Numbered from the stretch's first letter, positions 6,627-62,055 are shown. The stretch is DNA of 64,000 nt from Lingula anatina (GCA_051362555.1 CM120648.1:17542587-17606586); one strand, 5' to 3'. Notes: generated from the sequence alone by a model not told the origin. Numbers and translations are program-made.

Positions 6627-7040
6627 CAAACTTTCACGTGAAGCAATATTGTCCTGACAGACTAGCTTTTGGCATTGGTTTGTAACTAAAATGCAAATTT
6701 TTGCAAAGGATTTGAGGCATTGGACTTATACTCCTCAGCGTCAGAATGGATACATGGGTCGTGGGTGCCTGCCACTAATTGGTCGTTTGTTTTAGGTGAC
6801 CAACCAATGCAGGAACACCGCAGATATCTTCCAACCTGCCCGTTCGCCCTGGGACTGGAAGTTGGGAATATTCCTCTGCAAGCGCCAAGTACAACTCTTC
6901 CTTTACCTGTGTCAGAAACACAAAACCACGTTGTGCGTGGCAGCCCACCACGATCAGAGAGTAAGTATAAGTTAAATACAAGTACAGCACTTACATCCAG
7001 ACATACGGTACCGCAGGTACACATTGCCAGAGACCTAGAG

Positions 7041-7232
7041 CAGGCCTACCCAACTACCAGACTCGGCACCGATTGATCCAGAATGCACCGGTAAATCGGA
7101 CCACACTACCCGTTTTCAAGGTGTGTAGCAAGGTGTGTAATCTGATACACACCTTGAAAACGGGTAGTGTGGTCTGATCTACCGGCGAATTCTGGATCAT
7201 TCGGTGCCGAGTCTGGTAGTTGGGTAGGCCTG
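7041..7232. mobile_element. Near-perfect palindromic MITE with a 5-bp TSD (hAT5-like)
   Basis: caggcctacccaactaccagactcggcaccga ... tcggtgccgagtctggtagttgggtaggcctg, with TAGAG on both flanks (7036-7040, 7233-7237). Confidence 0.85.
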
Positions 7233-7852
7233 TAGAGGGTCTCATTCATGTGGTTCAATGTAATATATATTTATTCATTTTGACAATACCCCCAAAGCTT
7301 ATAACAAGGCATGTCTAAATGCTTGCAAGACGCTCCAGTTTGTTCTATTTTGATACTTAAAGCACCTTGAAAAAATGATTTTTTATAGACATTAAAAGAC
7401 ATTAATCAAATGAGTCTTAATGTATATAAATGCAGAGGAGTAACAGGGTCCGTTCAGTTACAACGTTGTGATTTATTTCCATAAAAATTAAAGGCCTTGG
7501 TGCTAAGATGAGATGCTTCCATTTTGACGGAGGGCTGATGAATTGGGAACCTCAAGACGACCCTTGGGCTGAACATGCGCGTCGGTTCCCAAATAAGGAA
7601 CGAGATTGGTCAAGGAACCCGGTAAAAAAATAATTAAAAAAACAAACAAAAAAAAAAAAACGTTTAGTCACATCATTTTATATGAAAATATAAAAACTAC
7701 GTTATTTTTAGTTGATTAAGTCTAGTTGACGTTTTAATAAAGCTGGAACCAGGAGCATAATTGAATGTTTGATTATCATTTAAACTCGTGGTAGCAAGGT
7801 GCCTTCCGTGACGTGCATTTAAAGCCTGTTCTGCTTGATGAACGATTAAAGT

Positions 7853-30180: not shown

Positions 30181-30234
30181 AATTATATGATAAAATAGCT
30201 AACACCTCACTCTAACTTTTCATTCTTTTACAAG

Positions 30235-36387: not shown

Positions 36388-36587
36388 CTAAGAACTTAAC
36401 CCCCAAGTCACCCTGATTGTCCCCGTGATCTCTGCTCTGCAAACGGCACAATTCCTCAAGGCAGGTGCACAGGTCACACAAGCAACAAGATGACCACACG
36501 GCAGAAATAGCACGCTTATTTCTTCATCCATACAGATCTTACAGATGCGCTCATGTTTCAGTCTTTTGTTTTCTTTTTGGAGTGTCC
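36388..36587 (-). CDS. Terminal RING-finger exon of an IAP
   Basis: ttccag|GGACACTC.. gives TLQKENKRLKHERICKICMDEEISVLFLPCGHLVACVTCAPALRNCAVCRAEITGTIRVTWGLSS*. Paralogous to 21272-21465. Confidence 0.9.
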
Positions 36588-39500
36588 CTGGAATAAAATT
36601 TGAAACACTTTCTATAAAACAGATCTTCTTGTATACATGTACTTCAGAAACATTATTTGTTGTTGGGTGATCCCTACTCATATTGATCATTTTTTTTCTT
36701 TCTTTATTTTTTCTATATGCTGCTTATTTTTAGTCTACTGTATTATATGCTATACAAGAAAATCCGATAAACCTAACGTCTTCACCGAGAATAAAATCAA
36801 CGTTGAATTTATATTTGAAAACGGAAGTTTGTGTCAACGTTGAAAAGTCAATGTTGAATCAACGTTGGCAATTCAACATTGAATCAACGTTGGCAATTCA
36901 ACATTGAATCAACGTTGGCAATTCAACGTTGAATCATGATTGATAGTTCAACGTTGTTTCAACATTAGAAATCTCAATTAACGTTGATTATATGTTGATT
37001 TAGCATTGATTATAACTTGATTTAACATTAAATAAAAGTTGAGACAAATAGCATTTTCAATGTCTTTATTTTGTCACTGCATAAAAGGAAAAATGCTGCT
37101 AATTTAAAGATGCATACAAAGTCAATTTTTTGTCACAAAAACCAACCAAATACCAGCATATAGTTTCAAGTAGTATAAATAAGAGAATTACCAAAAGGCA
37201 TTGTTTAATTTTACCCGAAAATGATGTTTGAACAGATTTCTCTGCTGGCATTCTAAGCTGTATGTCAATGGGGCAGAAAAGTAGGTCACGGAAGTAGGTT
37301 AGATTTACAACCATAAATTTAAAGAAAGGAGCAGTCTAAAGGTATTTTATGGCTGATCGAGTGATCTATTCAGTTTTTCCCTTGGCATGTCAAATTTATT
37401 TGAGTCATAAAAGAATCTAGTAGAAGTGGTTTACATGTGTTACTGGGAATCCACACTCCACCGATGCTCGGTTCGTATGTACCTTTAAGTAGTTAAAATA
37501 TACATAGTTTACAACATAGCAAACATAAATAAAAAACTGAGAACAACACTTTTTTTTTTACAAAACAAAGCTGCACATCGAATCTGAACTAACACAAAAA
37601 TTGTAATTAATTATGCATGTACATTGGGGGGGGGGGGGGGGGAGAGATTTTTGCACACCTTAACCTAAATTGTACTATACATTGTCATTTTTTAAGTAAA
37701 TTATAATTCAAACATATCATTAATAATCATAATCACTATAGTTCTGTAATAAATAAATCCTGAATAATGAATGAAAAAACATTGTTTTTTAGATGACGGA
37801 GAGTTCATTATAACAAAATTATAAATAACCATGCAGTAACTGTTTCAACTAGAGGATCAGAGAGGCGATACCGCCTCCAAATATTGTACCACCAGCTGGA
37901 GCAAGCGCATTCGTATAGACCCCCACATACACAAAATAAGGGACACAGCCACCAGTCTTTTGCTTGACAAGCTGTAAAAATGCAATCAACAAGAATTTGC
38001 AAAATATGCAATAAATATATATCAAAAAGTCATCAAAAGGTAGGTCAAAGGTCAATGTCACATTAAGATTGCCAGTATATGACTTCCTATTCAACTTCAA
38101 AAGTAACTTCGGACCTATCTCTGCCAGTTTGGGAGATAAAAGGGAAGCAAAATTTGCAAAGTTCAGTTCATGGTGAAAAGTAGGTCAATGGTCAATTTCA
38201 AGGTCACATTTAGATTGCCAGTGTATGACTTCCTATTCAAGTTCAATAGTAACTTTGAACCTTTCTCTGCCAGATTTGGAGATAAAAGGGCAGCAAAATT
38301 TACAAAGTTCAGTTCATGGTGAAATGTAGGTCAAAGGTCAATTTCAAGTTTACATTTGGATTGCCAGTATATGACTTACTATTAAAGTTCAATAGTAACT
38401 ATGGACCTATCTCTGCCAGTTTTGGAGATAAAAGGGAAGCAAAATTTGCAAAGGTTAGTTCATGGTGAAAAGTAGGTCAAAGGTCAATTTCAAGGTCACA
38501 TTTAGATTGCCAGTATATGACTTCCCATTCAAGTTCAATGGTAACTATGGACCTATCTCTGCCAGTTTGGGAGATAAAAGGGAAGCAAAATTTGCAAAGT
38601 TCAGTTCATGGTGAAAAGTAGTCAGGCGGCTAAGTCCTAATTTTATCCAGAATTCTGCAAAAGATGATAAAAGCATGAAATTTTCCACGATGAATGACCA
38701 TTGGGTGTTTGTCAACCCCCGGATCCAAAATAGACGAACACCCAATGGTCATTCATCGTGGAAAGTTTCATGCTTTTATCATCTATTGCACAATTCTGGA
38801 TAAAATTTGGACATAGCCACCTGACTATACTGTACTGCACATTTTGCTTTCACCACCGATATGTACTTTTTTATAGCGTAACTCGAAAACCGTTTGGAAT
38901 ACAAAAACGGAGACCACCATTGGGTGTTTGTCAACCCCCGGATCCAAAATAGACGAACACCCAACGGTCATTCATCGTGGAAAGTTTCATGCTTTTATCA
39001 TGCTCTACAAAATGCAAAAAAGAATGGGTCTCTAGCATTAACGGTTCCCGAATTAGAGACAGTTTTCAGTTTCGGCATCTTATGGCCGCTACTCCCGTGA
39101 AAATGCACCGATTGACCCCAAAGATGACCTGAAGGGTAACACTTTCCAATAATATTATTGGTTAAGTCTGTGTGGTGTCTGAATAACAGGGCAAAAAAAG
39201 TTTTTTTTCGTAAAAAATTTTATTTTTTTGAAAATTTTGGCCCGATTGACCTTGAAGTAAAGGTCAAAGGTCAAATCCAAGGGCATATTTGAAATCTACA
39301 CATATGACTTTTGGAAAGCCGTCTGTAGAAATTTTTCCCATAACCCCTTCCGTAGGGTAGAGAATTAGCATTTAATTTTGCCATTTTTGGACAAGGGTGC
39401 ATTGCAATGAGTGCCACACCCAGACCCCAATACCGACAAAGCCCAAATTTTACGTGGAACGAGTTGAGATTATATGTGACCTAAATCCAAGAGATGGGTA

Positions 39501-42500
39501 CGGGGGCCCTTACGGTCTAGGAGGAGAAGCGGTAACGGTAGCCGTCCGGCGGAGCCGGCGGAACGATCCGGATGGGACCGAAACCATGTGTACCGCCAGC
39601 GCTAACGCTGGTAGTACAATTAAACTTGCATGCTGTCTACATACATGCGAACTCTGAAAAAAGAATTATGTATACCCCATAGATATAGATGTACAATAAA
39701 AAGACAATTACATGTGCACAAAAAAAAAAAAAAAAAAAAAAACAGTATATTGTTGATGCTTTTGTATAAAATTACATCATGAATTAAATCATTCAATGAG
39801 TTGAACCAGTTTGGAACACTTATGCTTTTTTCATATCTATATCACTAAGAAATCATACATCAGGCTCCTTGACAAGATAATAATAATTAAAAGAATTAAC
39901 AATGCAACAAGTACATCTACCAAATTAACAACAGCTCATTTAAATGTCAGGTAAAAACACAACAGCCCTTCCTTTGTTAAAGAGAAACTGTCCTTTCAAA
40001 TATATGCTAATTGACAGTTCAGTCTTTAAAGGTACATACGAACCGAGCATCGGTGTAGTGTGGATTCCCAGTAACACATGTAAACCACTTCTACTAGATT
40101 CTTATATGACTCAAATAAATTCGACATGCCGGGGGAAAAACTGAATAGATCACTCGATCAGCCATAAAAGACCTTTAGACTGCTCCTTTCTTTAAATTTA
40201 TGGTTGTAAATTTAACCTACTTCCGTGACCTACTTTCCTGCCCCATTGACATACAGCTTAGAATGCCAGCAGAAAAATCTGTTCAAACATCATTTTCGGG
40301 TAAAATTAAACAATGTCTTTTGGTCATTCTCTTAGTTATACTACTTGAAACTATATGCTGGCATTTGGTTGGTTTTTGTGACAAAAAATTGACTTTGTAT
40401 GCATCTTTAAATTGTCTTTTCAAACATTTGCAGAATAACATATGAACTCCAACTATAATTATTCTAACCACATTGAAAATTTTCAAATCTAATCAACTCA
40501 TATCAAACCCCATGTCTCATATCAAACCCCATGTCCCTTTCACTTCTACAAATTCCACATGGTCTCTTCCTTTGCCTCCCTTTAAGTCACAATCAAATGC
40601 TCCCTTCACTTTAAAGGTTTCTCAGACGTGTCTGAATAATACTGTTTGTTTTGTGGTCCTCCACAAGAGCCCGAGATGCATTTTTTTCTTGGATTGCAGA
40701 ATTCCCCATGTATTTTCATCAATGATATTACAATATGCGCCTGAATTTGGTAATACAGCTAATACACTGAGATTAATGCCGCCTATCTCTATTTCCACCA
40801 TGTCTCAGTGTATATTGCATTGGTTACCCCACACCAAATGTATATGCACTCCTGGAATATCATGTTCATAACTGTCATATACATGAATATTAGTTTCAGT
40901 TTTGCAGACTTGTTGCACGTTCCATGTTTTCTCAGTCGGGGTGGTTTCTACTTCGTTTTTTCATGTCCGAACTCGTGGTGTTTAGACTGAGTTGGTTTGT
41001 CAAATGACTTCGGTTTTTAACATACTCACAGTTTCTGGAGTTACACTTCCATTTAAAGCGTCTATGTGCATCCATGTTTCACACCTGCAGTATGTTTGGG
41101 AGAGTCGTGAAAATATCTTGTACACATGAATGCAACATCAGCGCGCGTCTCTTCTGACATGTATTTTTTAATCTTGTGTCTTTGAGCGCATTCTCAACGA
41201 ATTAAGCCAGGCTTTACAAAGCCGGTGACCTAAAAATGGCGGACGTACATGAAAGAAAAACCGCCTAATCTTTTAATAGTCTCTCCGCCTCCTCACACGT
41301 CGTCCCTGCGGGGTACAGTAATTAAATCGCGTCTCCGTTCGCCATGCGGAAGCTACCTGAAAAATATTAAGTGCGCATGCTCATCAGTTAAACTCGTGGT
41401 GAAGAAAGCATGGCGGCTGAAGGCGATCGAAGGAAAAAAGTTCTTCTGTTCTATTATCTTTGAAAACAGAGACGAAAAAGGAATAATTTGGCCCGTAGAG
41501 CAGCAATGAATCGACTATCTACGGAGATAATATCACCAGAGATATTCACGGAAATATTAATGTTCGGAGCCGAGATTTAATTACTGTACCCCGCAGGGGC
41601 GACGTGTGGGGAGGCGTGTGAGAGGCGGAGAGACTATTAAAAGATTAGGCGGTTTTTCTTTCATGTACGTCCGCCATTTTTAGGTCACCGGCTTTGTAAA
41701 GCCTGGCTTAATTCGTTGAGAATGCGCTCTTTGTTCATTATTCATTTCGTCCGTTGGTTCTGAAACGATCAAACCTTTTCCGTCAGCGGCTTCTTGTTAG
41801 TCTTAACTATAGCCTGTCTAGCCAGCGTGGCCCGTGTTTCTCCGGACTTCTGTACGGTTCGAATTTCGTAATTTCACGTTTTATATAAATATACGAAATA
41901 TTTATACTGATAAATGATGATGAAAACTGTTCTCTTCACGCCGTCTGATTCTGATTTTAGAGTCAGATTGGAACCTTGAGAGCCAGGGGGAGATTGACTA
42001 TGTTAAGAGCATGTATAGACTCTGGTAGTGGGGTAATTTGACCCTTATATAGGAGTCAAATGAACTCCATGAGTGCCAAGGGGTGCTGGACTCTGACTAG
42101 AGAGTCAAATGACTCCAATATTATTCTCAATGTTCAAACGTACAGGAGTGATCAAATGTTACTGAAATGCAGGTTGAATAGGAAAATCAGCTTCCATTTT
42201 TTTTCTTGTTGGCATGCTGTCACGCGGCTTTTACAGATAACGCTTTGATGGAGAAACTTTTGGACTATTTTTTCCTAACTTAAAATAAGTATAATGACTT
42301 AGAAACACTTATTCATTAAAAACCAGCCTGATTATATTATTTTTTTAGTTATCCCCCTATGTCACTTTTACAGTGTGATTTTTGATGGGTCTAAATGCCT
42401 TTGCTAGTCACACTGTCTGAAAATCCATGATATTTATATCATATTTTGTGAAATTTCGGTAATTATGCTAACGGTTTTGTAATGTTGCATCAAAGTTGAA

Positions 42501-45115
42501 GGAGACCCAATTTTAAGCACTGATGTCATAATTGCCATTTAAAGTAAGTAATTTAACAAATTATCTTTAAACTTAGCGAAAAAGATTGAAAGGACTGAAT
42601 ATGGCTTCATTTTCAAAATCAACGTGATTCCATTCTTTTTCTGGACATAATGCACTTTTATTGTTCAAAATTTGCATTTTTCACGTGTCGGCATGGTCAA
42701 AGTGGGAAGCCTTAGGGTAGTCGCATTTTCAATATGTCCATATTATATATAGCAGTTGATAAAAAGTGGTCGTGATTATGATATTGATTATTATGTAATA
42801 TTGCTTCAAAACTGATAGTCCTATCACCACAAATGCTGTGAAAAGAAAAGTGTGTTACTTATCATTTTGTAACCAAAATAAATGATTCTTCGGATATACT
42901 TCTTAATTGGATTATCTTTTTGAATGTATATTTTAATGTTTTTTTTTTCCACATTTTCAAATTTTCAGGGTAAACATTCAGATATTTTGTAGGACCTATT
43001 ACACATACCACACACACACACGCAAACTTTAATATGCATGTCCCCTGCTATATGCAAACAAGTTGGTGTTGGTTTTACAGTAATTCTTTTTAAACATACA
43101 TGTATATTGTATTGTATGCAATGAAGATAACACATTTCAAGGAAAATCAAGCGCCTTTTGTCTTCAATGTTGATGAATATGACAAAAATGTAGGCAGAGC
43201 TTGAAAAAAGCCTGATCAGATTATGTTTTTCTTTCCGTTATGCTATTATTGTTACTTTGTAAACTTAACTTTGTGTCTGGTGATATATTGCCTTATATGA
43301 TCAGTTTTTTACTTCTTGTGGATAATTACATGACCTTCCAAGTGGTCAAAATCACTTTGCCAAAGCCCTAATGTTTACACGGACTTTCTAAAAATTACTA
43401 GACGCATTATTATTCTATATTGTACCAAAAAAGACACAAAAAGAAGCACATGAAAAAGGAAGACATTAAACGTATTAGTATATAACTTGTCTTTATACGT
43501 TTTTTTTTATTTTTAATCAATTATTGTTTTTATGTAAATCGATCACATATTGGTATCTTCAAGGAGTGACTTTGAACTTCAATGGGCATGAAGGCATTTG
43601 GTAGTCACAGTATGTGAAAAAACATAATACTGATGTCATGTTATTCAAATCGCGGGAGGTTATGATGTTCAGCTCTATGTCATATTGCATCAATCCAACT
43701 TTAGGAACTAGGTCATAACGACATTACGGTAAAACAATTAAGTTATGAATTCTAATCTCACAGAAAGATTGAATTTGAAAAAAGTCTCATTGCTTTACCT
43801 TTTCTAACAGATATACAATGAACATTAGCATTTTCATTGTAGGACTTATATAGGTCCCTTAAGGACGGGCACAAAACAATATAGTAGTTACAAATTCTGG
43901 ATATCCGTGTTAAGAATAGTGCATAAACGGATCATGGTGGTGATTATTTTAAATCAAAATTGACAAAAAAAAAATCCCATTTTATGCACTGCCAACACAC
44001 AATTAAAGGAAAACTGTGTTATCTTATTTTAAACTTACAAGGATGATTCCGAGGACGATCTTTTTTCACTTCAAGGTATTTTCAAAGTGTGCCTTTAATC
44101 CATTTTAACGCTATTTTATTCAACTCACAAATCAAAGGTTTTAGCGGTTTTAAAGAGGTTATAAGGCCATTTTTCCCTAAACATCCTGCTATAATAAAAT
44201 TATTTTGGTAGAGAACAAATTCTAGCAGCCCATTGTTTTGGATCCCTTTCCGTGTATGATGGTCTGATCTGACAAATAATTGAAGGTCCATGTCCTTTGT
44301 TTCGTCTATGTTCAAAATGTATTAAAAATTAAAAAAAACGCTTTCGGATACAGGCAGACTTACTCAAGTCCAAATCCTCAGGGGTGGGGGGATGGGCAGA
44401 CGTGTTCCCGTTTGAGGGTACATCACTAGCAACCCCAGCTTGAGTCAGTGTGCTACTTTCCTGTGACGTGATCTGCGGGTTGACTTCCTCTGGTAAAGTT
44501 GTGTCAACTGACCTGGGTACGGCTGTAGTACATAAAAAAAATAGTTAACTCTGCTGTTGAGCATATTATTGCATAAAAATGTAAAGTGTTGACAGTACGT
44601 ACTTCGTACATCATTATTTGCAAGACATTTTCTAAGAATCGTCGTCAACCCATGCTTACTCTCTGGTCCCCTTGTGTTTCCTGGTACAGCGGGACTTTGT
44701 GTTTCTTGTACAGGAAGAGCCGTGCCTGGCACTTGGTTGGGGTTGTTCTCAGCTCCCTGTCTTAGGTCGGATGGAAAGGTGGAAAGATTGTCTTGCCTTT
44801 GTTGGTCATCTGAAACAAACATTTGATAAAAAAAAAAATGTTTTTGTTATTTTATTCTAACACAGTCATATCGCTACTGGCTCAAAACAGAATGGAATTA
44901 TTTGAAACGTTTTCAGTGAGTCTGCGCCACTAAGTAGTGCAGTTTTACGGCACTTGAGATGACCAATGCGAAAAGACATACTTTGCAAATAAAGCGCATT
45001 TGAAATCAAACAAGAACACAGTGAGTAGTCATTTTTTATATGTTTTGAAATGTAGTAAAGTAAGCATCCTTATCCATAGTTTCAAAGGATTAAACAAATG
45101 TGCATTAATTTAAAA

Positions 45116-45207
<92 letters not shown>

Positions 45208-45923
45208 CTTTGGGAAAAAAAGTAAAGCAAAAGAGGATATGGCAGTTGTGGGACTATGGTGCAAAAAAGTTTTAAAGCCTGATTTTTTTTTTCACATCTA
45301 GATATGAGTTAAACCAAGGGTTAGACCAAGGTACTTTTCTGTTTGTAAATGTACATGTACCAGCATACTTCATTTGACCATGGCAAGTTGGATAAGAGAA
45401 AATGCTTTTCATTTGTTATCTGAACTGTCAGCTTCTCAACATCAAGTCACATACATTTGCTGTTTGTTTTTATAGCCAGATGTTAGGCAGATGCAATTAC
45501 CTGTCTAGGGATGGATATAGTTTGAATTCTGAATTACGTCATAGCAGAGCTCTATTCTTTTCACTGCAGTTTTTACATGATGTTGTTAAACTTTCCCTTT
45601 CACAAAGGACATTTCATGTTTTGTGTATGTGATTTAAGCCTTTGACTTTTGTTTCAACAAAATTTTAGTGTATGAATACATCTTTTATTGCCCTTTTAAA
45701 TTATTTTTTCTACACTGAAAAGCTGAAGTAATTGTTCATATATTGGAAATCCTTATCCAGACACACAATCACCCTTCTCAAACTATGAAAAAATGTATAA
45801 ATGGACATTTAACCTGTGTATGTACCCTGTGAATGTTTTCATCAAAACATGCATTTTATTCTATTTTTGAAATTTAGACAATAATATATTTAGGATAGTG
45901 TATTCATTGGGTCCTAATAAATG

Positions 45924-46007
<84 letters not shown>

Positions 46008-49000
46008 ACGGTCTTTTGTACGCCTTCTATTCCGAGGGTCTATTGTTCCGAGAGTCCCACATTTTGAATATTGTAGAAGCCAAGGCCAAAAACTGACCTC
46101 TGTTCCAATGTCACTGTATGACATATGAAGCGCTTCTAATTCCATTAAAAAGCCATTTTTGTCATTGTGTGGTTCTTATTGAATTCCTCCATATATTGAA
46201 GGAAAATCCTTAAGCAGTGTCATTTATAAGTCCGTTTAGATTTACTATTTTAATAATGAAAATAAAAAAAAAAACATAAGAAGAGACGCAGTAGATTATG
46301 GTAAACGAATAAATAAGCAGCTTTCAGCTTACTCGACACTTGCAATGGTGCAGATAAAGCTTTATGACAGCACAGAAAAAAACTTCTAAGATCGCAGAAA
46401 AATGTGTGTGCTATGGACAAAAAAATGACGTTTGCCAACTCATTAATTTTATCTTCATTGTAGGTAAATTGCACAAACAAAGGTACGTTAGGTACTTGAT
46501 AAACGCTGCCACCATCTTTTCTTTTTTTCACTAGGGACTTTTAAAGGCAATAAAGTTCAATTCTCGAACTTAAACGAAGGTTGCAAAATTTACGAAATTC
46601 CGACCTCATCAAAGCACACACGCCAGTTCTGAATATCTTCATAGGCGCAGCCAGTTGTCATATGCCTGGTAAAAATTCAAATATTTTGAAGGCTTTGAAC
46701 ACGTAGTACAGGTAGGGACACAATTTCCTGAACGTCTTGCTATAAAATGTTTTTTTGGAAGAAAACAGATACTGACAGCCCGTTTTATTGTTAAATAAAA
46801 GGGATAGTAGCACGTTATGATACAGGCAAACTTACGTGGTTGGGGATCTATTAATTCCCAGTCCTCAAAATTGGGGGGGTTGGCAGATGTGTTCTCGTTC
46901 GAGGGAACATCACTAGCAACACCAGCATGAGTCAGTGTGCTACTTTCCTGTGACATCATCTGCGGGTTGGCGACCTCTGGTGAACTGATGTCAACTGACC
47001 TAGATAAGGCTGTAGCATAAAATGAAAATTAGTTGTTTACTTTCCTGTAAAGCATTTTGTCTTCTTGCACCGAAATTGACCACAGAACATTTTAGTGTGT
47101 TATTATTTGCATCCCACAATTTTTAAGAATCATCGTCAACTCATGCTTACTCTCTGTTCCTGCTATGTTTCCAGGTACAATGGAACTCTGTGTTTCTTGT
47201 GCAGAAAGAGGCCTTCCTGGCACTTGGTTGGGATTGTTTTCAACCCCCTGTCTAAGGTCGGACGGGTAGGTGGAAATAATGTCCTGCATTTGTTGGTTAC
47301 CTTAAAAAGAAACGTTTTATAAGCATGTTTATTGCTATTTTTCATTCTAGTAACAATTTAAAGATTTTGGAAGCCTTTAAATGTGTTAAGGTCATATTTC
47401 TTAGAACGTCTAGCGATTTAACCATTATTTTGGTAGGAAACAAAATCATGCAGCCCGTTACATTGTGTCCTTTTTATTTTTGATGAGCTATTTTGACAAA
47501 TAATGGAAGGCGCTTGCCCTTTTGTTCCGTCTATGTGCACAATTGAATGAAAAAAGGATAGTTGCACGTTAGGAAACAGACAGACATACGTGGTTCACGA
47601 TCTATAAATTCGAAGTCCTCAGGGTCGCAATGGGCAGATGTGTTCTCGCTCGAGGGTACATCACTAGCAACACCAGCATGAGTCAGTGTGCTACTTTCCT
47701 GTGACATCATATGCCGGTTGGCGACCTCTGGTGAACTGATGTCAACTGACCAAGATAAGGCTGTATTATATAATAAAAATTAGTTGTTGACTTTTCTGTA
47801 AAACTTTTAGTCTTTTGGCATCGAAATTGGCCACAAAACATTTTAGTGTGTCATTATTTGCAAACACATTTTTTTATGAATCATCGTCAACTCATGCTTA
47901 CTCTCTGTTCCTGTTGTGTATCCTGGTACAATGGGACTTTGTGTTTCTTGTGCAGAAAGAGGCCTTCCTGGCACTTGGTTGGGGTTGTTCTCAACCCCCT
48001 GTCTAAGGTCGGACGGGTAGGTGGAAATAATGTCCTGCATTTGTTGGTTACCTTAAAAAGAAACGTTTTATAAACATGTTTATTGTTATTTTTCATTCTA
48101 GTAACAATTCAATGATTTTAGATGCCTTTAAAATGTGTTAAGGTCATATTTCCAAGAACGTCTAGTGATTTAACAATTATTTTGGTAGAAAACAAAATCA
48201 TGCAGCCCGTTACATTGTGTCTCTTTTTTATGTTTGATGGGCTATTTTGACAAATAATGGAAGGCGCTTGCCCTTTTGTTCCGTCTATGTACACACTTGA
48301 AGAAATAAGGATAGTTGCACTAAGAATCATTGCCAACTCATGCTTACTCTCTGGTCCTGTTGTGTTTCCTGGTTCAATGGGACTTTGTCTTTCTTGTGTA
48401 GATAGAGACCTTCCTGACATTTGGTTGGGGTTGTCCTCATTTTCCTGTCTAAGTTCGGACGGGCAGGTGGAATGATTTCCTTGCGTTTGTTGTTCAACTG
48501 AAATAAACGTTTTATAAATGTGTTTATTGCAATTTTTCATTCTATGACAATTCAAAGATTTTGAAGGCTTTTAAGATGTGTTAAGGCCATACTTCCCTGA
48601 ACGTCGAGTATATTTACATTTATTTTAGTAGGAAACAAAATCTTAGTGCATGCCCTATTATTTCGTCTATGTGCAAAATTTAATTCGATAGTAGAACGTA
48701 AGGATACAGACAGACTCACGTTGTACAGAATCTATAAATTCGAAGTCCTCAGGGTCACAATTGGCAGATGTGTTCTCGCTCGAGGGTACATCACTAGCAA
48801 CACCAGCATGAGTCAGTGTGCTACTTTCCTGTGACATCATCTGCCGGTTGGCGACCTCTGGTGAACTGATGTCAACTGACCTAGATAAGGCTGTAGTATA
48901 AAATAAAAATTAGTTGTTTACTTTCCTGTAAAACATTTAGTCTTTTGGCATCGAAATTGGCCACAAAACATTTTAGTGTGTCATTATTTGCAACCACTAT

Positions 49001-52000
49001 TTTTTAAGAATCATCGTCAACTCATGCTTACTCTCTGTTCCTGCTATGTTTCCTGGTATAATGGGACTTTGTGTTTCTTGTGCAGAAAGAGGCCTTCCTG
49101 GCACTTGGTTGGGGTTGTTCTCAACCCCCTGTCTAAGGTCGGACGGGTAGGTGGAAATAATGTCCTGCATTTGTTGGTTACCTTAAAAAGAAACGTTTTA
49201 TAAACATGTTTATTGTTATTTTTCATTCTAGTAACAATTCAATGATTTTAGATGCCTTTAAAATGTGTTAAGGTCATATTTCTTAGAACGTCTAGCGATT
49301 TAACAATTATTTTGGTAGAAAACAAAATCATGCAGCCCGTTACATTGTGTCCCTTTTTATGTTTGATGGGCTATTTTGACAAATAATGGAAGGCGCTTGC
49401 CCTTTTGTTCCGTCTATGTACACACTTGAAGAAATAAGGATAGTTGCACTAAGAATCATTGCCAACTCATGCTAACTTTCTGGTCCTGTTGTGTTTCCTG
49501 GTACAATGGGACTTTGTCTTTCTTGTGTAGATAGAGACCTTCCTGACATTTGGTTGGCGTTGTCCTCATTTTCCTGTCTAAGTTCGGACGGGCAGGTGGA
49601 ATGATTTCCTTGCGTTTGTTGTTCAACTGAAATAAACGTTTTATAAATGTGTTTATTGCAATTTTTCATTCTATGACAATTCAAAGATTTTGAAGGCTTT
49701 TAAGATGTGTTAAGGCCATACTTCCCTGAACGTCGAGTATATTTACATTTATTTTAGTAGGAAACAAAATCTTAGTGCATGCCCTATTATTTCGTCTATG
49801 TGCAAAATTTAATTCGATAGTAGAACGTAAGGATACAGACAGACTCACGTTGTACAGAATCTATATATTCGAAGTCCTCAGGGTCACAATTGGCAGATGT
49901 GTTCTCGCTCGAGGGTACATCACTAGCAACACCAGCATGAGTCAGTGTGCTACTTTCCTGTGACATCATCTGCCGGTTGGCGACCTTTGGTGAACTGATG
50001 TCAACTGACCTAGATAAGGCTGTAGTATAAAATAAAAATTAGTTGTTTACTTTCCTGTAAAACATTTAGTCTTTTGGCATCGAAATTGGCCACAAAACAT
50101 TTTAGTGTGTCATTATTTGCAACCACTATTTTTTAAGAATCATCGTCAACTCATGCTTACTCTCTGTTCCTGCTATGTTTCCTGGTATAATGGGACTTTG
50201 TGTTTCTTGTGCAGAAAGAGGCCTTCCTGGCACTTGGTTGGGGTTGTTCTCAACCCCCTGTCTAAGGTCGGACGGGTAGGTGGAAATAATGTCCTGCATT
50301 TGTTGGTTACCTTAAAAAGAAACGTTTTATAAACATGTTTATTGTTATTTTTCATTCTAGTAACAATTCAATGATTTTAGATGCCTTTAAAATGTGTTAA
50401 GGTCATATTTCTTAGAACGTCTAGCGATTTAACAATTATTTTGGTAGAAAACAAAATCATGCAGCCCGTTACATTGTGTCCCTTTTTATGTTTGATGGGC
50501 TATTTTGACAAATAATGGAAGGCGCTTGCCCTTTTGTTCCGTCTATGTACACAATTGAAGAAATAAGGATAGTTGCACTAAGAATCATCGTCAACTCATG
50601 CTAACTTTCTGGTCCTGTTGTGTTTCCTGGTACAATGGGACTTTGTCTTTCTTGTGTAGATAGAGACCTTCCTGACATTTGGTTGGCGTTGTCCTCATTT
50701 TCCTGTCTAAGTTCGGACGGGCAGGTGGAATGATTTCCTTGCGTTTGTTGTTCAACTGAAATAAACGTTTTATAAATGTGTTTATTGCAATTTTTCATTC
50801 TATGACAATTCAAAGATTTTGAAGGCTTTTAAGATGTGTTAAGGCCATACTTCCCTGAACGTCGAGTATATTTACATTTATTTTAGTAGGAAACAAAATC
50901 TTAGTGCATGCCCTATTATTTCGTCTATGTGCAAAATTTAATTCGATAGTAGAACGTAAGGATACAGACAGACTCACGTTGTACAGAATCTATATATTCG
51001 AAGTCCTCAGGGTCACAATTGGCAGATGTGTTCTCGCTCGAGGGTACATCACTAGCAACACCAGCATGAGTCAGTGTGCTACTTTCCTGTGACATCATCT
51101 GCCGGTTGGCGACCTCTGGTGAACTGATGTCAACTGACCTAGATAAGGCTGTAGTATAAAATAAAAATTAGTTGTTTACTTTCCTGTAAAACATTTAGTC
51201 TTTTGGCATCGAAATTGGCCACAAAACATTTTAGTGTGTCATTATTTGCAACCACTATTTTTAAGAATCATCGTCAACTCATGCTTACTCTCTGTTCCTG
51301 TTATGTTTCCAGGTACAATGGAACTCTGTGTTTCTTGTGCAGAAAGAGGCCTTCCTGGCACTTGGTTGGGGTTGTTCTCAACCCCCTGTCTAAGGTCGGA
51401 CGGGTAGGTGGAAATAATGTCCTGCATTTGTTGGTTACCTTAAAAAGAAACGTTTTATAAGCATGTTTATTGCTATTTTTCATTCTAGTAACAATTTAAA
51501 GATTTTGGAAGCCTTTAAATGTGTTAAGGTCATATTTCTTAGAACGTCGAGCATATTTACATTTATTTTGGTAGGAAACAAAATCTTAGTTCTTGCCCTA
51601 TTGTTCCGTCTGTGTGCAAAAATAAATAAAAAAGGACAGTTGCACGTTAGGATACAGACAGACTCACTTTGTTCAGAATATATTAACTCCCAGTTCTCAT
51701 GGGCGCAATGGACAGATATGTTCTCGTTAAAGGGTTCATCACTAGCAACACCAGCATGAGTCAGTGTGCTACTTTCCAGTGACATGATTTGCGGGTTGGC
51801 GACCTCTGGTGAACTGTTGTCAACTGGCCTAGATATTGCTTGTTGACTTGACAGTAGTGAGGACACATTGCCATTATGGTCACGTGGTGTAGGCGTGGCA
51901 TTTGCTAAGTTTGGGAAAGGGTCTATATTCTCATTGAAAACAGCATCATTTGTTGGAAGAATTGGGATATTTTCTGTGTCAGTCCCTCTCATCAATGGAC

Positions 52001-52681
52001 ACTCTGGGTTGAAAGCACGATGTCGTACAGCAGGGTCATCCCCACGAGCCCACTCCCTCAGTCGTCCACCACAGCTAAAGCAAACAACTTCATCTCTTTC
52101 TCCAGAATGGTAGAATCCAGCGCGTGCAAGTCGCGTGGCTGGCACGGGGACAAAACCGGGCATATTTGCAAAGGTCGATAATCTTACAGCTTCAGAATGT
52201 AATTCTTCTCGCCTTTGGAAAGGTGGACCATTTCCCTGTTGATCGAAGAAAGGAACTGCATACACAGTACTGCAAATGTTCTCTGGGTTGCAGAGAGCGC
52301 CATCACCTTTATATATGGGGTGTCCATTTCCAGAAAAACACTTTGCTCGTTTGTATAAAAACTCCCTCACCAGGTAACGAATGAGTCGGAGGGGTTGTGA
52401 AATACACGTCATGCAGAGCTTATAAATCGGATTGCAGTTTCGAACTTGGGATTGATTGGTAAGAAATCTTAACATAATATTATGCAACAAACAACGTCGA
52501 GCTGCAAGCTTATGTGCAGCAATAGCCAATAGTTTCTTCTTCAGATGATACGAGTATACCTCCCTTTGAGATACCAAAGTTACTGCTTTGTCGTGGACAT
52601 TAGAGGTATCAATTTGGTCAGCTTGCGGTAAACTAGATGTCTTTTCGTGGGCTGCAATATTCTGTATGTCAGTGTGGACAC
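36388..52681 (-). CDS. IAP paralogue 3: BIR, ~790-aa repetitive linker, RING (5' end lies further upstream)
   Basis: BIR exon 52681-51668, 15 linker exons 51438-44364 and RING exon 36587-36388 are all phase 1 and join in one open frame. The long intron 44363-36588 is inferred. Confidence 0.7.
36790..37030. repeat. Array of self-complementary tcaacgttga-type repeats (MITE-derived)
   Basis: Repeated tcaacgttgaat / ttcaacattgaatcaacgttggca units. Confidence 0.7.
37108..37484. mobile_element. Kolobok-type MITE, copy A (377 bp, TTAA TSD)
   Basis: TTAA on both sides; imperfect TIR agatgcatacaaa / ttcgtatgtacct. Inverted copy at 40030-40406. Confidence 0.75.
37988..39620 (+). mobile_element. Non-autonomous Helitron/Helentron-like element with an internal ~122-bp tandem array
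   Basis: Starts AACAAGA. About five aggtcaaaggtcaa-containing units at 38030-38620. 3' hairpin tgtaccgccagcgctaacgctggtagtaca at ~39590-39618. Internal inverted repeats at 38640-39000. Confidence 0.6.
40030..40406. mobile_element. Kolobok-type MITE, copy B (inverted relative to copy A)
   Basis: TTAA at 40026-40029 and 40407-40410. ORF 40200 (+) is nearly identical to ORF 37099-37314 (-). Confidence 0.75.
40430..41160 (-). mobile_element. Decayed Gypsy-like gag/protease remnant
   Basis: Minus strand MVEIEIGGINLSVLAVLPNSGAYCNIIDENTW..PLKVKGAF..VEFVEVKG resembles a retroviral aspartic protease (DSGA degraded to NSGA). Confidence 0.5.
41184..41729. mobile_element. Fold-back MITE with long (>100 bp) near-perfect TIRs and GAG...CTC ends
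   Basis: gagcgcattctcaacgaattaagccaggc...ctctccgcctc and its exact reverse complement. TSD is TTT, or CTTTG if the ends are shifted by one base. Confidence 0.85.
44364..51438 (-). repeat. Tandem exon array of IAP 3 (~1129-bp period in the core): 15 symmetric phase-1 exons
   Basis: A (150 nt): 51438-51289, 50310-50161, 49181-49032, 48051-47902, 47300-47151, 44809-44660. B (171/174/159 nt): 51148-50978, 50019-49849, 48890-48720, 47760-47590, 47009-46836, 44522-44364. C (150 nt): 50755-50606, 49626-49477, 48497-48348. All have AG/GT and lengths divisible by 3; no stops seen in the copies translated. Confidence 0.9.
51668..52681 (-). CDS. Large BIR-encoding exon of IAP 3
   Basis: Acceptor ttttgcttcag at 52682; frame open from 52681 (GVHTDIQNI...). 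BIR: RLSTFANMP..RLARAGFYHSGERDEVVCFSCGGRLREWARGDDPAVRHRAFNPECP with CxxC/H/C ligands. Donor A|gtgagt at 51667. Confidence 0.9.
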
Positions 52682-53372: not shown

Positions 53373-54187
53373 CCAGCAGGCATTCTGCAACATGTCAAAA
53401 TTTGACCACGATGGGATACAAGAAATGCTTCGATTCTCCAGCAAAACCAACTGGAATCCTTTGCTGGTTACCCAGGTTCTGGCACTTCTGGGGTCATTGA
53501 ACCTAACAATGATTTTGCAAGTTTGAAAGAAAGAATTTAAGTTGGCAGCGATATTGCAAACATTTGCAAAATTTTGCAGCAAGGCTGAAATTTTCCAAAG
53601 AGATTCATTAGTATTTGGCAAAATGTAAATCTTAATAAACTCACCTGGGACTTTGTGTTTTTCACCTTTGATTGTCATATTGGTGTGAGTAAAATATACT
53701 GTCTCGTGGTTTAATCCCTTCTGTTTGGCTTCGGTGATCAATTCATCATACGCTCCCTTTTCCAAATTCACACCTAATGAAAACATCTCATAATTGGAGG
53801 TTGTAAATAAACTTTTAAGTTGCATATGATTTTATTGTTTCTTTTTTGTAAAATGTATAAAAGGAAATTGATCAACTTTACTTTCATTATTTAGACTCAT
53901 TTTCATACTTGCCAGGTGGTACATAGGACGTTCACACACCCCATGGATCCCCATGATCGCTAAAAACAAAACGTACAAAAGACGCAGCGGAGGTTGGTGG
54001 ATCAATGGAAGTAGAAATGAGGCACACACCAGGCTTTTGCTGCTGAATGGTCGCTCAGTGATCGGCTTTTGGTCGGCACATAATGTATACCATTTATTCT
54101 ACTTTCAAAGTGCAGCGTGTCAATATGTTTTTCAACAAAGGCAAGATATATGAGGGAAAGAGCTACTGACAGCCTCAATACAACCAA
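52846..54187 (-). pseudogene. Disrupted coding-like segment, possibly TIR-domain-like
   Basis: ORFs 54187-54002, 54029-53832 and 53825-53154, plus the continuation LLTDLLQKHNI..LGSDI..AVQSKNKVLIICTNS, loosely follow a TIR fold pattern. Stops, frameshifts and a (GT)n insertion are present. Confidence 0.35.
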
Positions 54188-55964: not shown

Positions 55965-56984
55965 CTGCCCCACTGTCTGCTAATTTCAACCTTCGTTGTT
56001 TTCCTATATTGGCAACATCAAAAATATCCTTCTTGGCTTGCGTATCATATTCCTTGTTGGCATCTGCAAACAAATATGGTTAACATTTTTTTTGTTATCT
56101 AGTTTTTAGTTAGATTGATCGGCCCATGTTCGCCTTACCTTTTCAGAATTTTGTTCAGGTATATGCCATAATCAATTTATTGTCAATAGCACCAGTATTT
56201 GGGTGTACTGTTGAATAGCCGAACCTGTTCAGCAGATCGTTATGACAAAAATATGTCCACTTATTGAACTTAAGTCTCTGAGCAAAGAAGCATGGTGGAT
56301 ATAAAATGTATCTTCTCCGTGGTCTCCATCAGGCCAGATAAAAAGAAACAATTAAGAATTAAAGAATGAAACTAATATGTATACTATCATAAACTGATTT
56401 CGAGAGCATCCATTTTAAAAGCCGAGTTGTGAAATGAATTACAAGCGTACAAGTAGGATATTGCGGTATGTATATGTATCACTTACTGTTTGATTGAATA
56501 TTACCTCCACTTAACTTACCTAGAAGAAAATAACTATCTTGACATTCCTCAAGGAAGATCTGCATCTCGGTGTATATCATAGTTGATATCAAGAAGTTTG
56601 GTTTCGTTTACTTTTAGTGTCAAACCCCTCATACGTTCCCTTTCCCAGACCCTCAACTTAAGGAAACAACTCACAAGGTCGTATATGGGTGTTTGTTTGC
56701 AAAACATGCTTCTTTCGTACGTATATCATTGGGGAAAATAAATCAACATTACACCACTTAATTCATTGTGAGCCTCACCTTCACACGTATGGTGCTTTTG
56801 TAATTCAACAAAGTTTTCTCCGTCATCATTAGCATCGTTGGTTGGTCCCATGTTTTTAAAAAATGATCTGAAAGAACATGGTGCAATTGTCAATGAAACA
56901 GACAAACGAATAAATAGACTACAGGCTATCATGAACTGTAACTTACCATTATGGTTATCTACTTTGGAAGTATGGAGACACACC
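55965..56984 (-). other. Exon-like segments upstream of IAP 3, including an intact 99-nt phase-1 exon (56063-55965)
   Basis: ttgcag|ATGCCAAC...GGGGCAG|gtgagt gives ANKEYDTQAKKDIFDVANIGKQRRLKLADSGA. Further strong donors at ~56138 (aag|gtaagg) and ~56519 (tag|gtaagt). WERERMRGLTLKVNETKLLDINYD is weakly death-domain-like. Confidence 0.35.
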
Positions 56985-58249: not shown

Positions 58250-58610
58250 GTGCACAGTCTTGAGCAAGATACAAAGGGAAACACATGGACAGAATCTATC
58301 CAAATATAACAACCCACCAAAGAAATTATATCAAATAGAAATACTGAACATAAAAATCGAAAAACACTTCTGGCAGGAATTAAATAGCTCAATCTCAAAC
58401 AAATTAAGGACATACAAAACAATTAAAAAAATATTATGAATGTGAAAATTACATCAAAATGAGTGTCTTCCCATTAAATATCAAAACACTTGCAAAAATT
58501 AGACTAAGGCTTCATAGGGCACAGACCGTGATCATAAGATAGCGCGAATAGAAAATAGATTTTTAGAAAATAGACATTCCATGTGAACGAAACCTAAGTG
58601 ACCACAACTT
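58250..58610 (+). mobile_element. Non-LTR retrotransposon C-terminal fragment (RTEX/CR1-group-like), interrupted by a small Harbinger-type insert (58508-58594, TAA TSD)
   Basis: FWQELNSSISNKLRTYKTIK..YECENYI..TLAKIRL[insert]SDHN matches the KLRTY..K..E.YL..KxRLSDH motif. Confidence 0.55.
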
Positions 58611-61028: not shown

Positions 61029-62055
61029 TTATACTATCTTATTCAACAGATAATGAGTTGTTTCAAATCTTAAAACCTCTAAGTATTTACAAATAAAATA
61101 ATAATAACACAAATTAACTTTTTTATCATTTTCTTTTTTTGTCTTTCTTTCATATCACTTTTATCAGTCACATATTGTTATGTAACATCAGCCACGTACA
61201 ATGTTAACATCACACGATCGGGGCTGACTTAAAAACAAATAACAATATGTTGACATACCTTCTCCAGCATGCCTGCCTTGTTTCTCAGCTTTCTCATACT
61301 TCTTTGCCGCCTGAGATAACCCCTTCTTGCTAGTTAGCTTTTTGTAGCAAAAAAGTGACATCGTGGTTTGGCTTCCAAATCGTCGAATCCTTTATCTAAA
61401 TCCGTACGGATCCACTGAACAGCAGCGGCTTCTCTGCTGCCAAATTTCAGCCGTTGTTTCGCTGTGACTCTAAAAGTTTCCCAGCGAAGACGTGTGATGG
61501 TATCTAGAGTCTCTTAACTAGCTACCTTCTTCTATGTGCATGCAACACGAAAAATGAGAATTTGGCGAAGATTTCGCGTCTCCCTCCTCAGAATCTTCAA
61601 TACAGCCGACCATGCTGCTTTGTTTACATGGCATGGCCTGGTGGGAAGGTGACATGACCCCCTTTTCGTTGCTTTGATTGGTTAAAAGGCTCGAACGGCG
61701 GGGCTATTCATTTTGATATTTCGACATAAATACTGTCGCAATTATCTATATGTTGGCGCACCTCTTGGTTGCCGAATTTCTTTTGGATATTATTTAACTG
61801 TTTATCTTAATGCACCGCAAACAGTACTGCAATATAACAATTAGGATTTTGAATACGTTTTCATCCCTGCTAATCATTTCATCCACGAAAATGCAGTAGT
61901 ATCGAAGTAACAAAGATGCATTAACGCAGTAGTGGTGTGGATCATATTTGCAGTAGAAGTGCAGCATAGCCTACTCCAACTCTACTCCAAAAAGCACATA
62001 GGTTTGTACAGAGAGGAGCATTAATGCAGTAGATTAGCAGCATGATAGAAGCATG

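What the first reader, a model, noticed from the sequence alone, without database searches (positions are those of the whole stretch)
44364..51438. A decayed BIR domain recycled into a tandemly amplified 15-exon linker of an IAP
Seen in sequence: every repeat exon is phase 1-1 with AG/GT, a multiple of 3 long and open, even in the diverged outer copies. Together they total 2367 nt (789 S/T/P/Q/E/N-rich residues) between the BIR and the RING. The 150-nt A/C exons align at DNA and protein level with the 165-nt BIR2 C-half exon of paralogue 1 (6796-6960): GDQPMQEHRRYLPTCPFALGLEVGNIPLQAPSTTLPLPVSETQ vs DDQQRQDN---LSTFPSDLRQGAENNPNQVPGTALP--VQETQ, with the same GAGA|gtaag donor. A 9-nt deletion removes the zinc-binding His, and the Cys becomes Tyr/Phe (kept only in type C). 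Inference: a folded domain lost its metal ligands and was amplified as a disordered spacer under frame-preserving selection, giving an unusual BIR-(pseudoBIR)n-RING protein.
Basis: partly seen in the sequence, partly recalled or inferred. Interest (0 to 1): 0.85.

Follow-up and report, generated by a model that had tools for sequence, protein, structure and literature searches.

The report
IAP with amplified lysine-free linker exons
A cell-death regulator (IAP) gene, whose closest relatives are from the brachiopod Lingula, carries 15 in-frame repeat exons copied mostly from its two floppy inter-domain linkers plus remnants of a deleted BIR domain, and these would form a roughly 790-residue, nearly lysine-free, predicted-disordered spacer between its one BIR domain and a RING domain whose joining to the array is untested.

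Summary
Minus-strand gene 2 has an intact BIR exon, 15 open phase-1 AG/GT exons (2367 nt) and a RING exon 7.8 kb further on. A/C exons are homologous to exon 6796-6960 (DNA z 14-25); the His is deleted and the Cys survives only in type C.

The interpretation needs correcting. That exon holds only the last 17 of 70 BIR profile positions plus the BIR2-BIR3 linker. B exons are the BIR1-BIR2 linker, ending in a remnant of BIR2's first exon. So BIR2's core was deleted in frame, and what was amplified is about 80% pre-existing linker, not a pseudo-BIR.

Selection kept the frame (0 stops vs 4-5 expected, P about 0.01; in-frame indels) but not the sequence (dN/dS about 1). Lysine is avoided (1 of 788; nominal P 0.02-0.05).

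RNA reads of diverged homologues (mostly under 90% identity) join A/B/C exons at the predicted ends, 2 reads per junction. This copy is nearly silent in 6 runs, and no array-to-RING junction was seen.

Verdict: a new variant of lophotrochozoan XIAP/cIAP-like genes, likely a long-tether BIR1-RING adaptor or ligase; function unshown.

The parts
53645..53773 (-). Upstream 129-nt phase 1-1 exon of gene 2 (no Pfam hit)
   Evidence: AG/GT and open. The 963-nt intron to 52681 is seen as a CT..AC joint in X7 (3 reads) and X8 (1 read), at 85% likeness.
55965..56063 (-). Candidate upstream 99-nt phase 1-1 exon
   Evidence: AG/GT and open; no read support (depth 0 in that bin).
51668..52681 (-). 1014-nt exon: N-terminal extension of unknown identity, intact BIR1 (C-x2-C-x16-H-x6-C), then a B-like tail (B0, 51838-51668) ending E-N-W-E-L + 5 codons
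   Evidence: Pfam BIR 63.7 bits at residues 166-230. AF2 gives a BIR fold with pLDDT 80-88 and pLDDT <50 for 233-337. 58-67% identity to Lingula IAPs.
51289..51438 (-). A1 exon (150 nt): BIR2 tail without His, Cys->Tyr, plus BIR2-BIR3 linker
   Evidence: acceptor end joined to a B donor in 2 homologue reads
50978..51148 (-). B1 exon (171 nt): BIR1-BIR2 linker plus inferred BIR2 scar
50606..50755 (-). C1 exon (150 nt), Cys kept, weak A|GTTAG donor
50161..50310 (-). A2 exon (150 nt)
49849..50019 (-). B2 exon (171 nt); holds the only Lys of the array
49477..49626 (-). C2 exon (150 nt), identical to C1, weak A|GTTAG donor
49032..49181 (-). A3 exon (150 nt), identical to A2
48720..48890 (-). B3 exon (171 nt)
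48348..48497 (-). C3 exon (150 nt)
   Evidence: acceptor end joined to a B donor in 2 homologue reads
47902..48051 (-). A4 exon (150 nt)
   Evidence: donor end joined to a B acceptor in 2 homologue reads
47590..47760 (-). B4 exon (171 nt), donor C|GTATGT
47151..47300 (-). A5 exon (150 nt)
46836..47009 (-). B5 exon (174 nt)
44660..44809 (-). A6 exon (150 nt), diverged outer copy, Cys->Phe, contains PVQET
   Evidence: low sense-strand coverage in X3
44364..44522 (-). B6 exon (159 nt), diverged outer copy, last exon of the array
   Evidence: X3 depth pattern fits about 2 reads that stop near the donor (inferred from bin depth)
36388..36587 (-). Phase-1 RING exon (C3HC4 intact; tail 3 residues longer than cIAP1, Thr at the Phe616 position), presumed last exon of gene 2
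   Evidence: Pfam zf-C3HC4_3 55 bits; best PDB hits are cIAP1/cIAP2 RING; dN 0.23 / dS 1.25 vs the gene 1 RING. Junction to B6 not observed.
6796..6960 (+). Reference exon in paralogue 1: BIR2 last 17 positions plus BIR2-BIR3 linker
   Evidence: Pfam BIR 53-69; matches P0001 273-328 and P0014 235-289.

Best explanation
This is an XIAP/cIAP-like IAP paralogue with one intact BIR and 15 in-frame phase-1 exons copied from its own two inter-BIR linkers, which likely encodes a BIR1 module tethered to a RING by a roughly 790-residue acidic, lysine-poor, predicted-disordered spacer. Origin (homology shown, order of events inferred): the ancestral exon I carried BIR1, linker 1-2 and BIR2 positions 1-52; exon II carried BIR2 positions 53-69 and linker 2-3. 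An in-frame deletion of about 70 codons removed the BIR2 core with its CxxC and left an N/D-W-E-L/P scar at the exon end. The orphaned tail then lost His (9 nt) and mostly Cys. A duplication breakpoint at the start of linker 1-2 created a new phase-1 acceptor, giving a B+A exon pair. The pair was amplified by unequal crossing-over, most recently as three 1129-nt A-B-C units. BIR3 and UBA were lost. Selection keeps the frame open and probably keeps lysine out, but not the sequence. Function (inferred): without BIR2/BIR3 it would not be a direct caspase or IBM-binding inhibitor. It would act as a long-reach, length-variable adaptor or ligase whose BIR1 docks on a signalling partner while the Lys-free tether avoids self-ubiquitination. 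It is expressed at low level or in unsampled conditions.
For: Exon geometry and open frame. B matches linker residues 114-162 and A/C match residues 240-289 of intact XP_013399962. Exon I ends in the codons for E-N-W-E-L (B0), E-D-W-E-L (B5) and E-D-L-D-L| (B6), matching the R-N/D-W-E-P/L-G that precedes the exon-II sequence in 4 of 4 intact paralogues examined; chance about 6e-5. Exon counts of 8 and 6 for XP_013399962 and XP_013391201 fit one exon for BIR1-linker-BIR2N (supplement rows; inference). No BIR2 N-part, BIR3 or UBA match lies between 36587 and 52681. Neutral simulation: P(no stop) 0.004-0.012 and 0.007-0.009. In-frame indels: 2 of 2 in exons vs 1 of 15 in introns, Fisher P 0.022. 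dN/dS about 1. Lys gains 1 vs 4.6-5.7 expected, the lowest tail of the 20 residues. FoldIndex is negative for all 8 exons tested and for the array. Homologue reads splice A>B, B>C and B>A at the predicted ends. RING is under purifying selection. Best single-domain PDB hits for the BIR are XIAP and cIAP2 fragments, recalled to be their BIR1.
Against: This copy is almost silent. At 92% likeness, array depth was 0-0.1 in 4 of 4 runs except 0.78 over the outer A6-B6 pair in X3, and the BIR exon had 0 depth in X1 and X4 and 0.03 in X3. In one search only 5 of 521 laid reads were 99+% alike (4 in X3, 1 in X7). Junction support is 2 reads each, below the tool's own listing threshold, and comes from sequences mostly under 90% alike. 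No B6-to-RING joint was seen; read-through of the B6 donor stops after 11 codons with an AATAAA at 44120. The RING tail has Thr where cIAP1 has Phe616, which is needed for activity (PMC6349121 passages). The Met shared by paralogues before BIR1 is Leu here, although the frame stays open upstream. The Lys result is post hoc, does not survive correction for 20 residues, and the ancestral linkers were already Lys-poor (0-2 per linker). Gene conversion among copies can bias the tree-based tests.
Confidence: 0.58

Rival explanations
1. A relaxed or dying duplicate. The frame was kept during earlier history, but this copy is now a near-silent paralogue in an IAP birth-and-death cluster, and the array is a by-product of unequal crossing-over tolerated only because the exons are symmetric.
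For: Near-zero expression in 6 of 6 runs laid. dN/dS about 1. Loss of BIR2, BIR3 and UBA. Altered RING tail. The neighbouring paralogue is broken. Lingula has 50 predicted IAPs with frequent domain loss (PMC13159474 passages and supplement).
Against: No stop or frameshift in any of the 15 array exons, the BIR exon or the RING exon, where 4-5 stops are expected in the array alone. Diverged homologues are transcribed and spliced. About 2 sense fragments cover A6-B6 in X3, which has 4 reads at 99+%.
Confidence: 0.25
2. The array is real coding sequence, but the main product lacks the RING or skips many exons. Transcripts end by intronic polyadenylation after B6 or use variable subsets of the phase-1 exons, giving BIR1-plus-tail decoys rather than a ligase.
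For: The intron before the RING is 7776 nt and repeat-filled. There is a stop 11 codons past the B6 donor and an AATAAA at 44120. Two C donors are weak. Homologue reads show a shortened in-frame A exon (84 nt) and an A exon joined to the BIR-exon acceptor.
Against: The RING exon is phase-compatible, intact and under purifying selection. No other IAP exon was found that could use it. Depth in the 44000-44433 bin fits exon-only coverage in X3, X8 and X9 (inferred).
Confidence: 0.12
3. One reading: each repeat is a degenerate BIR domain that lost its zinc ligands by point changes and was amplified as such.
For: A/C exons begin with 14 residues of the BIR2 tail, with His deleted and Cys changed.
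Against: Only profile positions 53-69 are in the source exon, and the 3 A/C exons and 1 B exon scanned give no Pfam hit at E up to 10. About 48 of 70 BIR positions are absent from exons and introns. 77-84% of array residues are linker-derived.
Confidence: 0.03
4. The three near-identical 1129-nt units are an assembly artefact that inflates the exon count.
For: The units are 97-99% identical. No DNA run was listed, so depth could not be checked.
Against: The units differ at 9, 25 and 32 scattered positions. The diverged A, B and C lineages and the outer pair stand regardless.
Confidence: 0.05

Closest known systems
Lingula anatina XIAP/DIAP2-like IAPs (XP_013399962.1 = P0014, XP_013391201.1 = P0001, P0022, P0023); BIR1-BIR2-BIR3-UBA-RING
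   Same: BIR1 region 50-67% identical. B and A/C exons align to their two inter-BIR linkers and BIR2 tail. C-terminal IAP-type RING.
   Different: Gene 2 lacks the BIR2 core, BIR3 and UBA, and has 789 residues of repeated linker in 15 exons. In the published table of RefSeq Lingula IAPs, no non-BIRC6 model has more than 12 exons and none with one BIR plus RING exceeds 555 aa (PMC13159474 supplement parts 22-23).
Lophotrochozoan IAPs remodelled by BIR loss (PMC13159474) and oyster non-zinc-binding NZBIR (PMC8917759)
   Same: Domain loss by unequal crossing-over is reported for L. anatina and C. gigas (passages); BIRs lacking a zinc ligand are reported in oysters (passages).
   Different: Those are clean losses of a whole BIR or single substitutions in a full-length BIR. 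Here a partial deletion leaves a scar, and the flanking linkers are amplified as exon pairs.
Disordered regions built from phase-symmetric tandemly duplicated exons (Schad, Kalmar, Tompa 2013, PMC3632108, abstract only)
   Same: Symmetric exons, internal tandem duplication, predicted disorder.
   Different: Here the source is traceable to named IAP linkers and a broken folded domain, and the copies are young enough to measure selection.
RING E3s with disordered lysine deserts (San1, Slx5, RNF6, RNF12; PMC10665810 passages)
   Same: RING plus long Lys-free disordered stretch. Lys-free runs here are about 430 and 570 residues (hand count) against the paper's 150-aa threshold.
   Different: No homology claimed; here the desert arose by exon amplification; ligase activity and protection from self-ubiquitination are untested.

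Membership tests
IAP/BIRC family | At least one BIR with C-x2-C-x16-H-x6-C | tested here: met
   Pattern match, Pfam BIR 63.7 bits vs cut-off 22.9, AF2 fold.
RING-containing IAP (E3 ligase) | C-terminal C3HC4 RING in the same transcript | tested here: inconclusive
   RING exon intact and phase-compatible; no spliced read joining it to the array was listed.
RING-containing IAP (E3 ligase) | C-terminal tail with a Phe/Tyr at the cIAP1 Phe616 position | tested here: not met
   Thr at that position, then Trp and a 3-residue extension (role of Phe616 from PMC6349121 passages). Intact Lingula paralogues have Ile there, so the criterion is loose in this lineage.
RING-containing IAP (E3 ligase) | Ubiquitin ligase activity | not testable with these tools
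   Needs an in vitro assay.
XIAP/DIAP2-like 3-BIR IAP | Three BIRs, with C-terminal IBM/caspase-binding BIR and UBA | tested here: not met
   No BIR2 core, BIR3 or UBA found in gene 2; it derives from this type but no longer has the architecture.
BIR domain / pseudo-BIR (for the repeat unit) | Sequence covering most of the 70-position BIR profile | tested here: not met
   Source exon covers positions 53-69 only; 4 of 4 array exons scanned give no Pfam hit; at most about 22 of 70 positions are represented per unit.
BIR domain / pseudo-BIR (for the repeat unit) | Descent from BIR-coding sequence | tested here: met
   First 53 nt of the source exon match A/C exons at 31-33 of 44 aligned bases; B-end scar (inferred).
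Lysine-desert protein (definition of PMC10665810) | Continuous Lys-free stretch of 150 aa or more | tested here: met
   One Lys in 788 array residues and none in BIR-exon residues 125-337, assuming the exons are spliced as modelled.
TRAF-binding scaffold (PVQET-type motifs of MAVS/CD40) | Functional TRAF-binding motifs | tested here: inconclusive
   All 9 A/C exons carry [PS]xQE at one position and A6 has PVQET. The count is not above shuffles (4 vs 1.8, P 0.09). The general pattern is recalled; PVQET is from PMC3743401 and PMC9655775 passages. Binding not tested.

The most novel reading that the evidence does not exclude
A broken BIR2 and its flanking linkers were turned into a selectable exon-pair cassette that builds a length-tunable, about 1000-residue lysine desert studded with nine TRAF-type (P/S)xQE motifs. 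The result is a multivalent TRAF/NF-kB adaptor or decoy IAP that resists its own RING and varies in reach by unequal crossing-over and exon skipping: the birth of a lysine-desert E3 caught in the act.
Probability: 0.15. Interest if true: 0.8.

Novelty: new variant of a known kind. Interest (0 to 1): 0.5.

Why it matters
It is an unusually well-resolved case of how a long disordered region arises inside a multidomain signalling protein. Every segment maps to a position in an intact paralogue. The copies span 0-20% divergence, so one can separate selection on frame (seen), on sequence (not seen) and on composition (lysine avoidance, suggestive). That makes testable whether linker length and lysine depletion are selected in RING E3s, and whether expanded invertebrate IAP families innovate between domains rather than only by domain gain and loss; domain-count surveys would score this gene as plain BIR-RING. 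If the copy is merely dying, it remains a tidy example of symmetric-exon amplification with modest interest.

Tried and rejected
No whole genome is held, so other copies and the exon structure of intact paralogues could not be read directly. Sequencing-run search: no RNA holder listed; 9 same-label raw-read runs were offered, of which 6 were laid (X1, X3, X4, X7, X8, X9) and 3 not (X2, X5, X6); 6-30% of each run was read. In one search, repeat-derived reads between 37 and 43.5 kb crowded the joint table (80 joints not shown), so absence of a RING joint there is weak. Protein search with the A/C alignment (87-2000 aa): none of 182 candidates at E 0.01, weak evidence. Profile of B exons against 1.84 billion representatives: 4 hits, one a true Lingula IAP with a single linker copy (P0014); P0013, P0015 and P0016 are unrelated low-complexity repeats and were rejected. 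Intronisation of BIR2 coding sequence as the origin of the B>A intron was rejected: AT-rich, no tblastn match. Source of the new B acceptor: no homology of the A>B intron to four candidate regions (z at most 0.8). N-terminal 146 residues of the BIR exon: no Pfam hit above cut-off, no Atlas hit, AF2 long helices without alignment support. Enrichment of S/T-Q, S/T-P and TRAF6-type motifs: none. Earlier scan notes: nothing returned. Literature searches for an IAP with such an array (listings only) returned none describing it; the library is partial. Complex prediction was not run, since no TRAF or partner sequence was available and a RING homodimer would pass by likeness. The IQ-TREE report did not print omega, so the fixed-value comparison assumes the braced value is omega; the pairwise counts do not depend on this.
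Full report
1. Observation. The window holds two IAP genes in tail-to-tail orientation: gene 1 on the plus strand (about 5.9-21.5 kb) and gene 2 on the minus strand. In gene 2 a 1014-nt exon (52681-51668) encodes an intact BIR (Pfam 63.7 bits). Fifteen exons follow in the order A B C A B C A B C A B A B A B. All have AG/GT ends, phase 1-1 and lengths of 150, 159, 171 or 174 nt, 2367 nt in total. A phase-1 RING exon lies at 36587-36388, 7776 nt further on. The conceptual splice has no internal stop. The array is 58% S/T/P/Q/E/N, has net charge -76, 2.3% aromatic residues and one Lys in 788. Two C exons have A|GTTAG donors. The three central 1129-nt units differ by 9-32 positions.

2. Homology. 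Seven of the nine A/C exons were tested against exon 6796-6960: DNA z 14-25, 0 of 1000 codon shuffles; four B exons gave nothing. The alignment shows the 9-nt gap over the His codon, a 6-nt gap, Cys TGC to TAC/TTT in A and retained in C, and the shared donor. Protein-level scores against this exon are significant for A (z 5-8) but not for C (z about 1). The closest database proteins are Lingula anatina IAPs, so the window is probably from Lingula or a close relative (inference). The intact paralogue XP_013399962 (P0014: BIR-BIR-BIR-UBA-RING) gives the map. B exons match its residues 114-162, the BIR1-BIR2 linker (z 13-20). A/C exons match 240-289 (z 2-9). Exon 6796-6960 covers only BIR profile positions 53-69 of 70, and the four array exons scanned have no Pfam hit. 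AF2 on P0014 gives pLDDT under 50 for 62-179 and 257-299, so both source linkers were already coil-like. No BIR2 N-part, BIR3 or UBA match exists in gene 2.

3. What happened to BIR2. In 4 of 4 intact paralogues the residues before the exon-II sequence are R-N/D-W-E-P/L-G. The exon-I tail of gene 2 has codons for E-N-W-E-L plus five more, B5 has E-D-W-E-L plus five, and the outer B6 ends E-D-L-D-L directly at the donor. The chance of such a 4-mer near the exon end is about 6e-5 (MAFFT itself did not place it there, so this is my reading of the codons). The five extra codons look like a 15-nt tandem duplication (inference). So each B|A pair is linker 1-2, a scar of BIR2 with about 48 of 70 positions deleted including CxxC, and linker 2-3. 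Exon counts of 8 and 6 for XP_013399962 and XP_013391201 (PMC13159474 supplement) fit one ancestral exon for BIR1-linker-BIR2N. That makes the B acceptor a new junction (inference; its source was not found). BIR-derived residues are 16% of the array, or 23% with the scar. The C>A introns are chimeras of an A donor and a B>A intron end, i.e. a B exon was lost.

4. Selection. Pairwise dN/dS among diverged copies scatters around 1. A codon model fits as well with the ratio fixed at 1 (lnL -426.84 vs -426.84; -526.52 vs -526.39) and worse at 0.5 (-429.26; -530.44). Neutral simulation on the exon trees expects 4-5 stops; none is seen (P 0.004-0.012; 0.007-0.009). Indels: 2 of 2 within array exons keep frame, against 1 of 15 in introns (Fisher P 0.022). 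I dropped one of the 16 listed intron gaps because it marks the chimeric junction, many intron gaps are in homopolymer runs, and some lie in a poorly aligned stretch. The outer unit differs by 53 of 306 bases in exons and 121 of 393 in introns (P 5e-5), though base composition may contribute. Lys gains are 1 against 4.6-5.7 expected (P 0.016-0.049, uncorrected, lowest of 20 residues), but ancestral linkers held only 0-2 Lys each. The RING shows dN 0.23 and dS 1.25 against gene 1. Gene conversion among copies is not modelled.

5. Expression. No RNA holder was listed; nine raw-read runs under the same species label were offered, six were laid, 6-30% of each read. At 92% likeness the bins 47452-51435 had zero depth in four runs apart from 0.03 in one bin, and X3 had 0.78 sense-oriented depth over 44132-44795. 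At 85%, X8 and X9 covered A and B exons and the BIR exon, but 132 of 178 and 135 of 187 laid reads were under 90% alike and none was 99+. In X8, two reads each join 47903/47007 (A to B), 46836/48496 (B to C) and 47590/51437 (B to A), exactly at the predicted ends with 1-3 substituted letters. Two more join a shortened in-frame A to B6, and three join an A end to the BIR-exon acceptor. The upstream 963-nt intron is seen in X7 (3 reads) and X8 (1). So exons of this kind are spliced as predicted in a diverged allele, sister lineage or paralogue. This copy itself has only about two sense fragments over A6-B6 (X3, which has 4 reads at 99+%). No array-to-RING joint was listed; one search did not include the RING and hid 80 joints.

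6. Likely working. Shown: exon structure, origin of each segment, frame-keeping selection, splicing in homologues. Predicted: disorder (FoldIndex negative for 8 of 8 exons tested; pLDDT under 50 for the B-like tail). Inferred: the product is BIR1, a long acidic tether, and RING. The best single-domain PDB hits of the BIR are XIAP and cIAP2 fragments, which I recall as the BIR1 domains that bind TAB1 and TRAF2. PMC13159474 (passages) describes N-terminal E2-type BIRs as often unfit for IBM binding. Lacking BIR2, BIR3 and UBA, the protein would be an adaptor or ligase rather than a caspase inhibitor. The tether, with Lys-free runs of about 430 and 570 residues (hand count), meets the lysine-desert definition of PMC10665810 (passages), which in San1 and Slx5 limits self-ubiquitination. 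Against ligase activity, the RING tail has Thr at the cIAP1 Phe616 position and three extra residues. All nine A/C exons carry [PS]xQE at one site and A6 has PVQET, the TRAF-binding motif of MAVS and CD40 (passages); the count is not significant (P 0.09), so this is only a lead. Confidence 0.58; dying duplicate 0.25; RING-less or skipped products 0.12; assembly inflation of the three young units 0.05; strict pseudo-BIR reading 0.03.

7. Comparison and novelty. It is an IAP by the BIR test. It descends from the XIAP/DIAP2-like type but fails that architecture. Lingula has 50 predicted IAPs, and BIR loss by unequal crossing-over is reported (PMC13159474: passages, section 8, supplement parts 22-23). 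Non-zinc BIRs are known in oysters (PMC8917759 passages). Disordered regions from symmetric duplicated exons are known (PMC3632108 abstract). No listed Lingula non-BIRC6 IAP has over 12 exons. Protein searches found no array-bearing protein (weak negatives), and five literature searches (listings) found no description. Supplementary figures of PMC13159474 (e.g. S18) could not be seen and might show related cases.

Noticed in passing
window 5909-6564 (+): Gene 1 BIR1 exon is split by an insertion of about 215 nt (6060-6280) with stops, carries deletions in the BIR and linker, and no BIR2 N-part was found; its 3' exons (BIR3 19389-20132, UBA about 20760-21076, RING 21272-21465) are intact, so a shorter BIR3-UBA-RING product is possible.
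   Followed up: partly
window 7490-7620 (+): Degenerate extra copy of the BIR3 C-terminal exon inside gene 1 (82% to 19952-20053; ligand Cys residues altered).
   Followed up: no
window 44661 / 52682 (run X8): Three homologue reads join the end of an A exon to the acceptor of the BIR exon: either a back-spliced circle or a paralogue with a larger head-to-tail duplication. RefSeq model P0005 likewise ends in that exon's first residues after a BIR3 exon.
   Followed up: no
window 52240-52679 (-): 146-codon open stretch ahead of BIR1 with AF2-predicted long helices and a Lys cluster; no Pfam or Atlas match. The Met used by paralogues just before BIR1 is Leu here.
   Followed up: partly
window 11206-14681 and 14843-18309: 3.5-kb direct tandem duplication (97.6%) in the long intron of gene 1, separated by a small palindromic element at about 14682-14842 that is also found at 58516-58600.
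   Followed up: no
window 24594-28379 (-): LINE-like retrotransposon remnant (endonuclease- and reverse-transcriptase-like ORF pieces, frameshifted; labels recalled), inserted between the halves of an element with inverted ends at 7093-7178 / 24172-24210-like repeats.
   Followed up: no
window 30199-31117 (+): ORFs with a zinc finger and a Walker-A packaging-ATPase-like motif, resembling a Polinton/Maverick-type element fragment (label recalled).
   Followed up: no
window 37101-40413: Element bounded by 388-nt inverted repeats (96.6%) with an internal 146-nt tandem array (38036-38621), in the intron before the RING exon; attracts very deep, mostly one-strand RNA coverage from related copies.
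   Followed up: no
window 61258-61361 and 56779-56867 (-): Further candidate 5' exons of gene 2 with ATG-started open frames and phase-1 donors; start codon not settled.
   Followed up: partly
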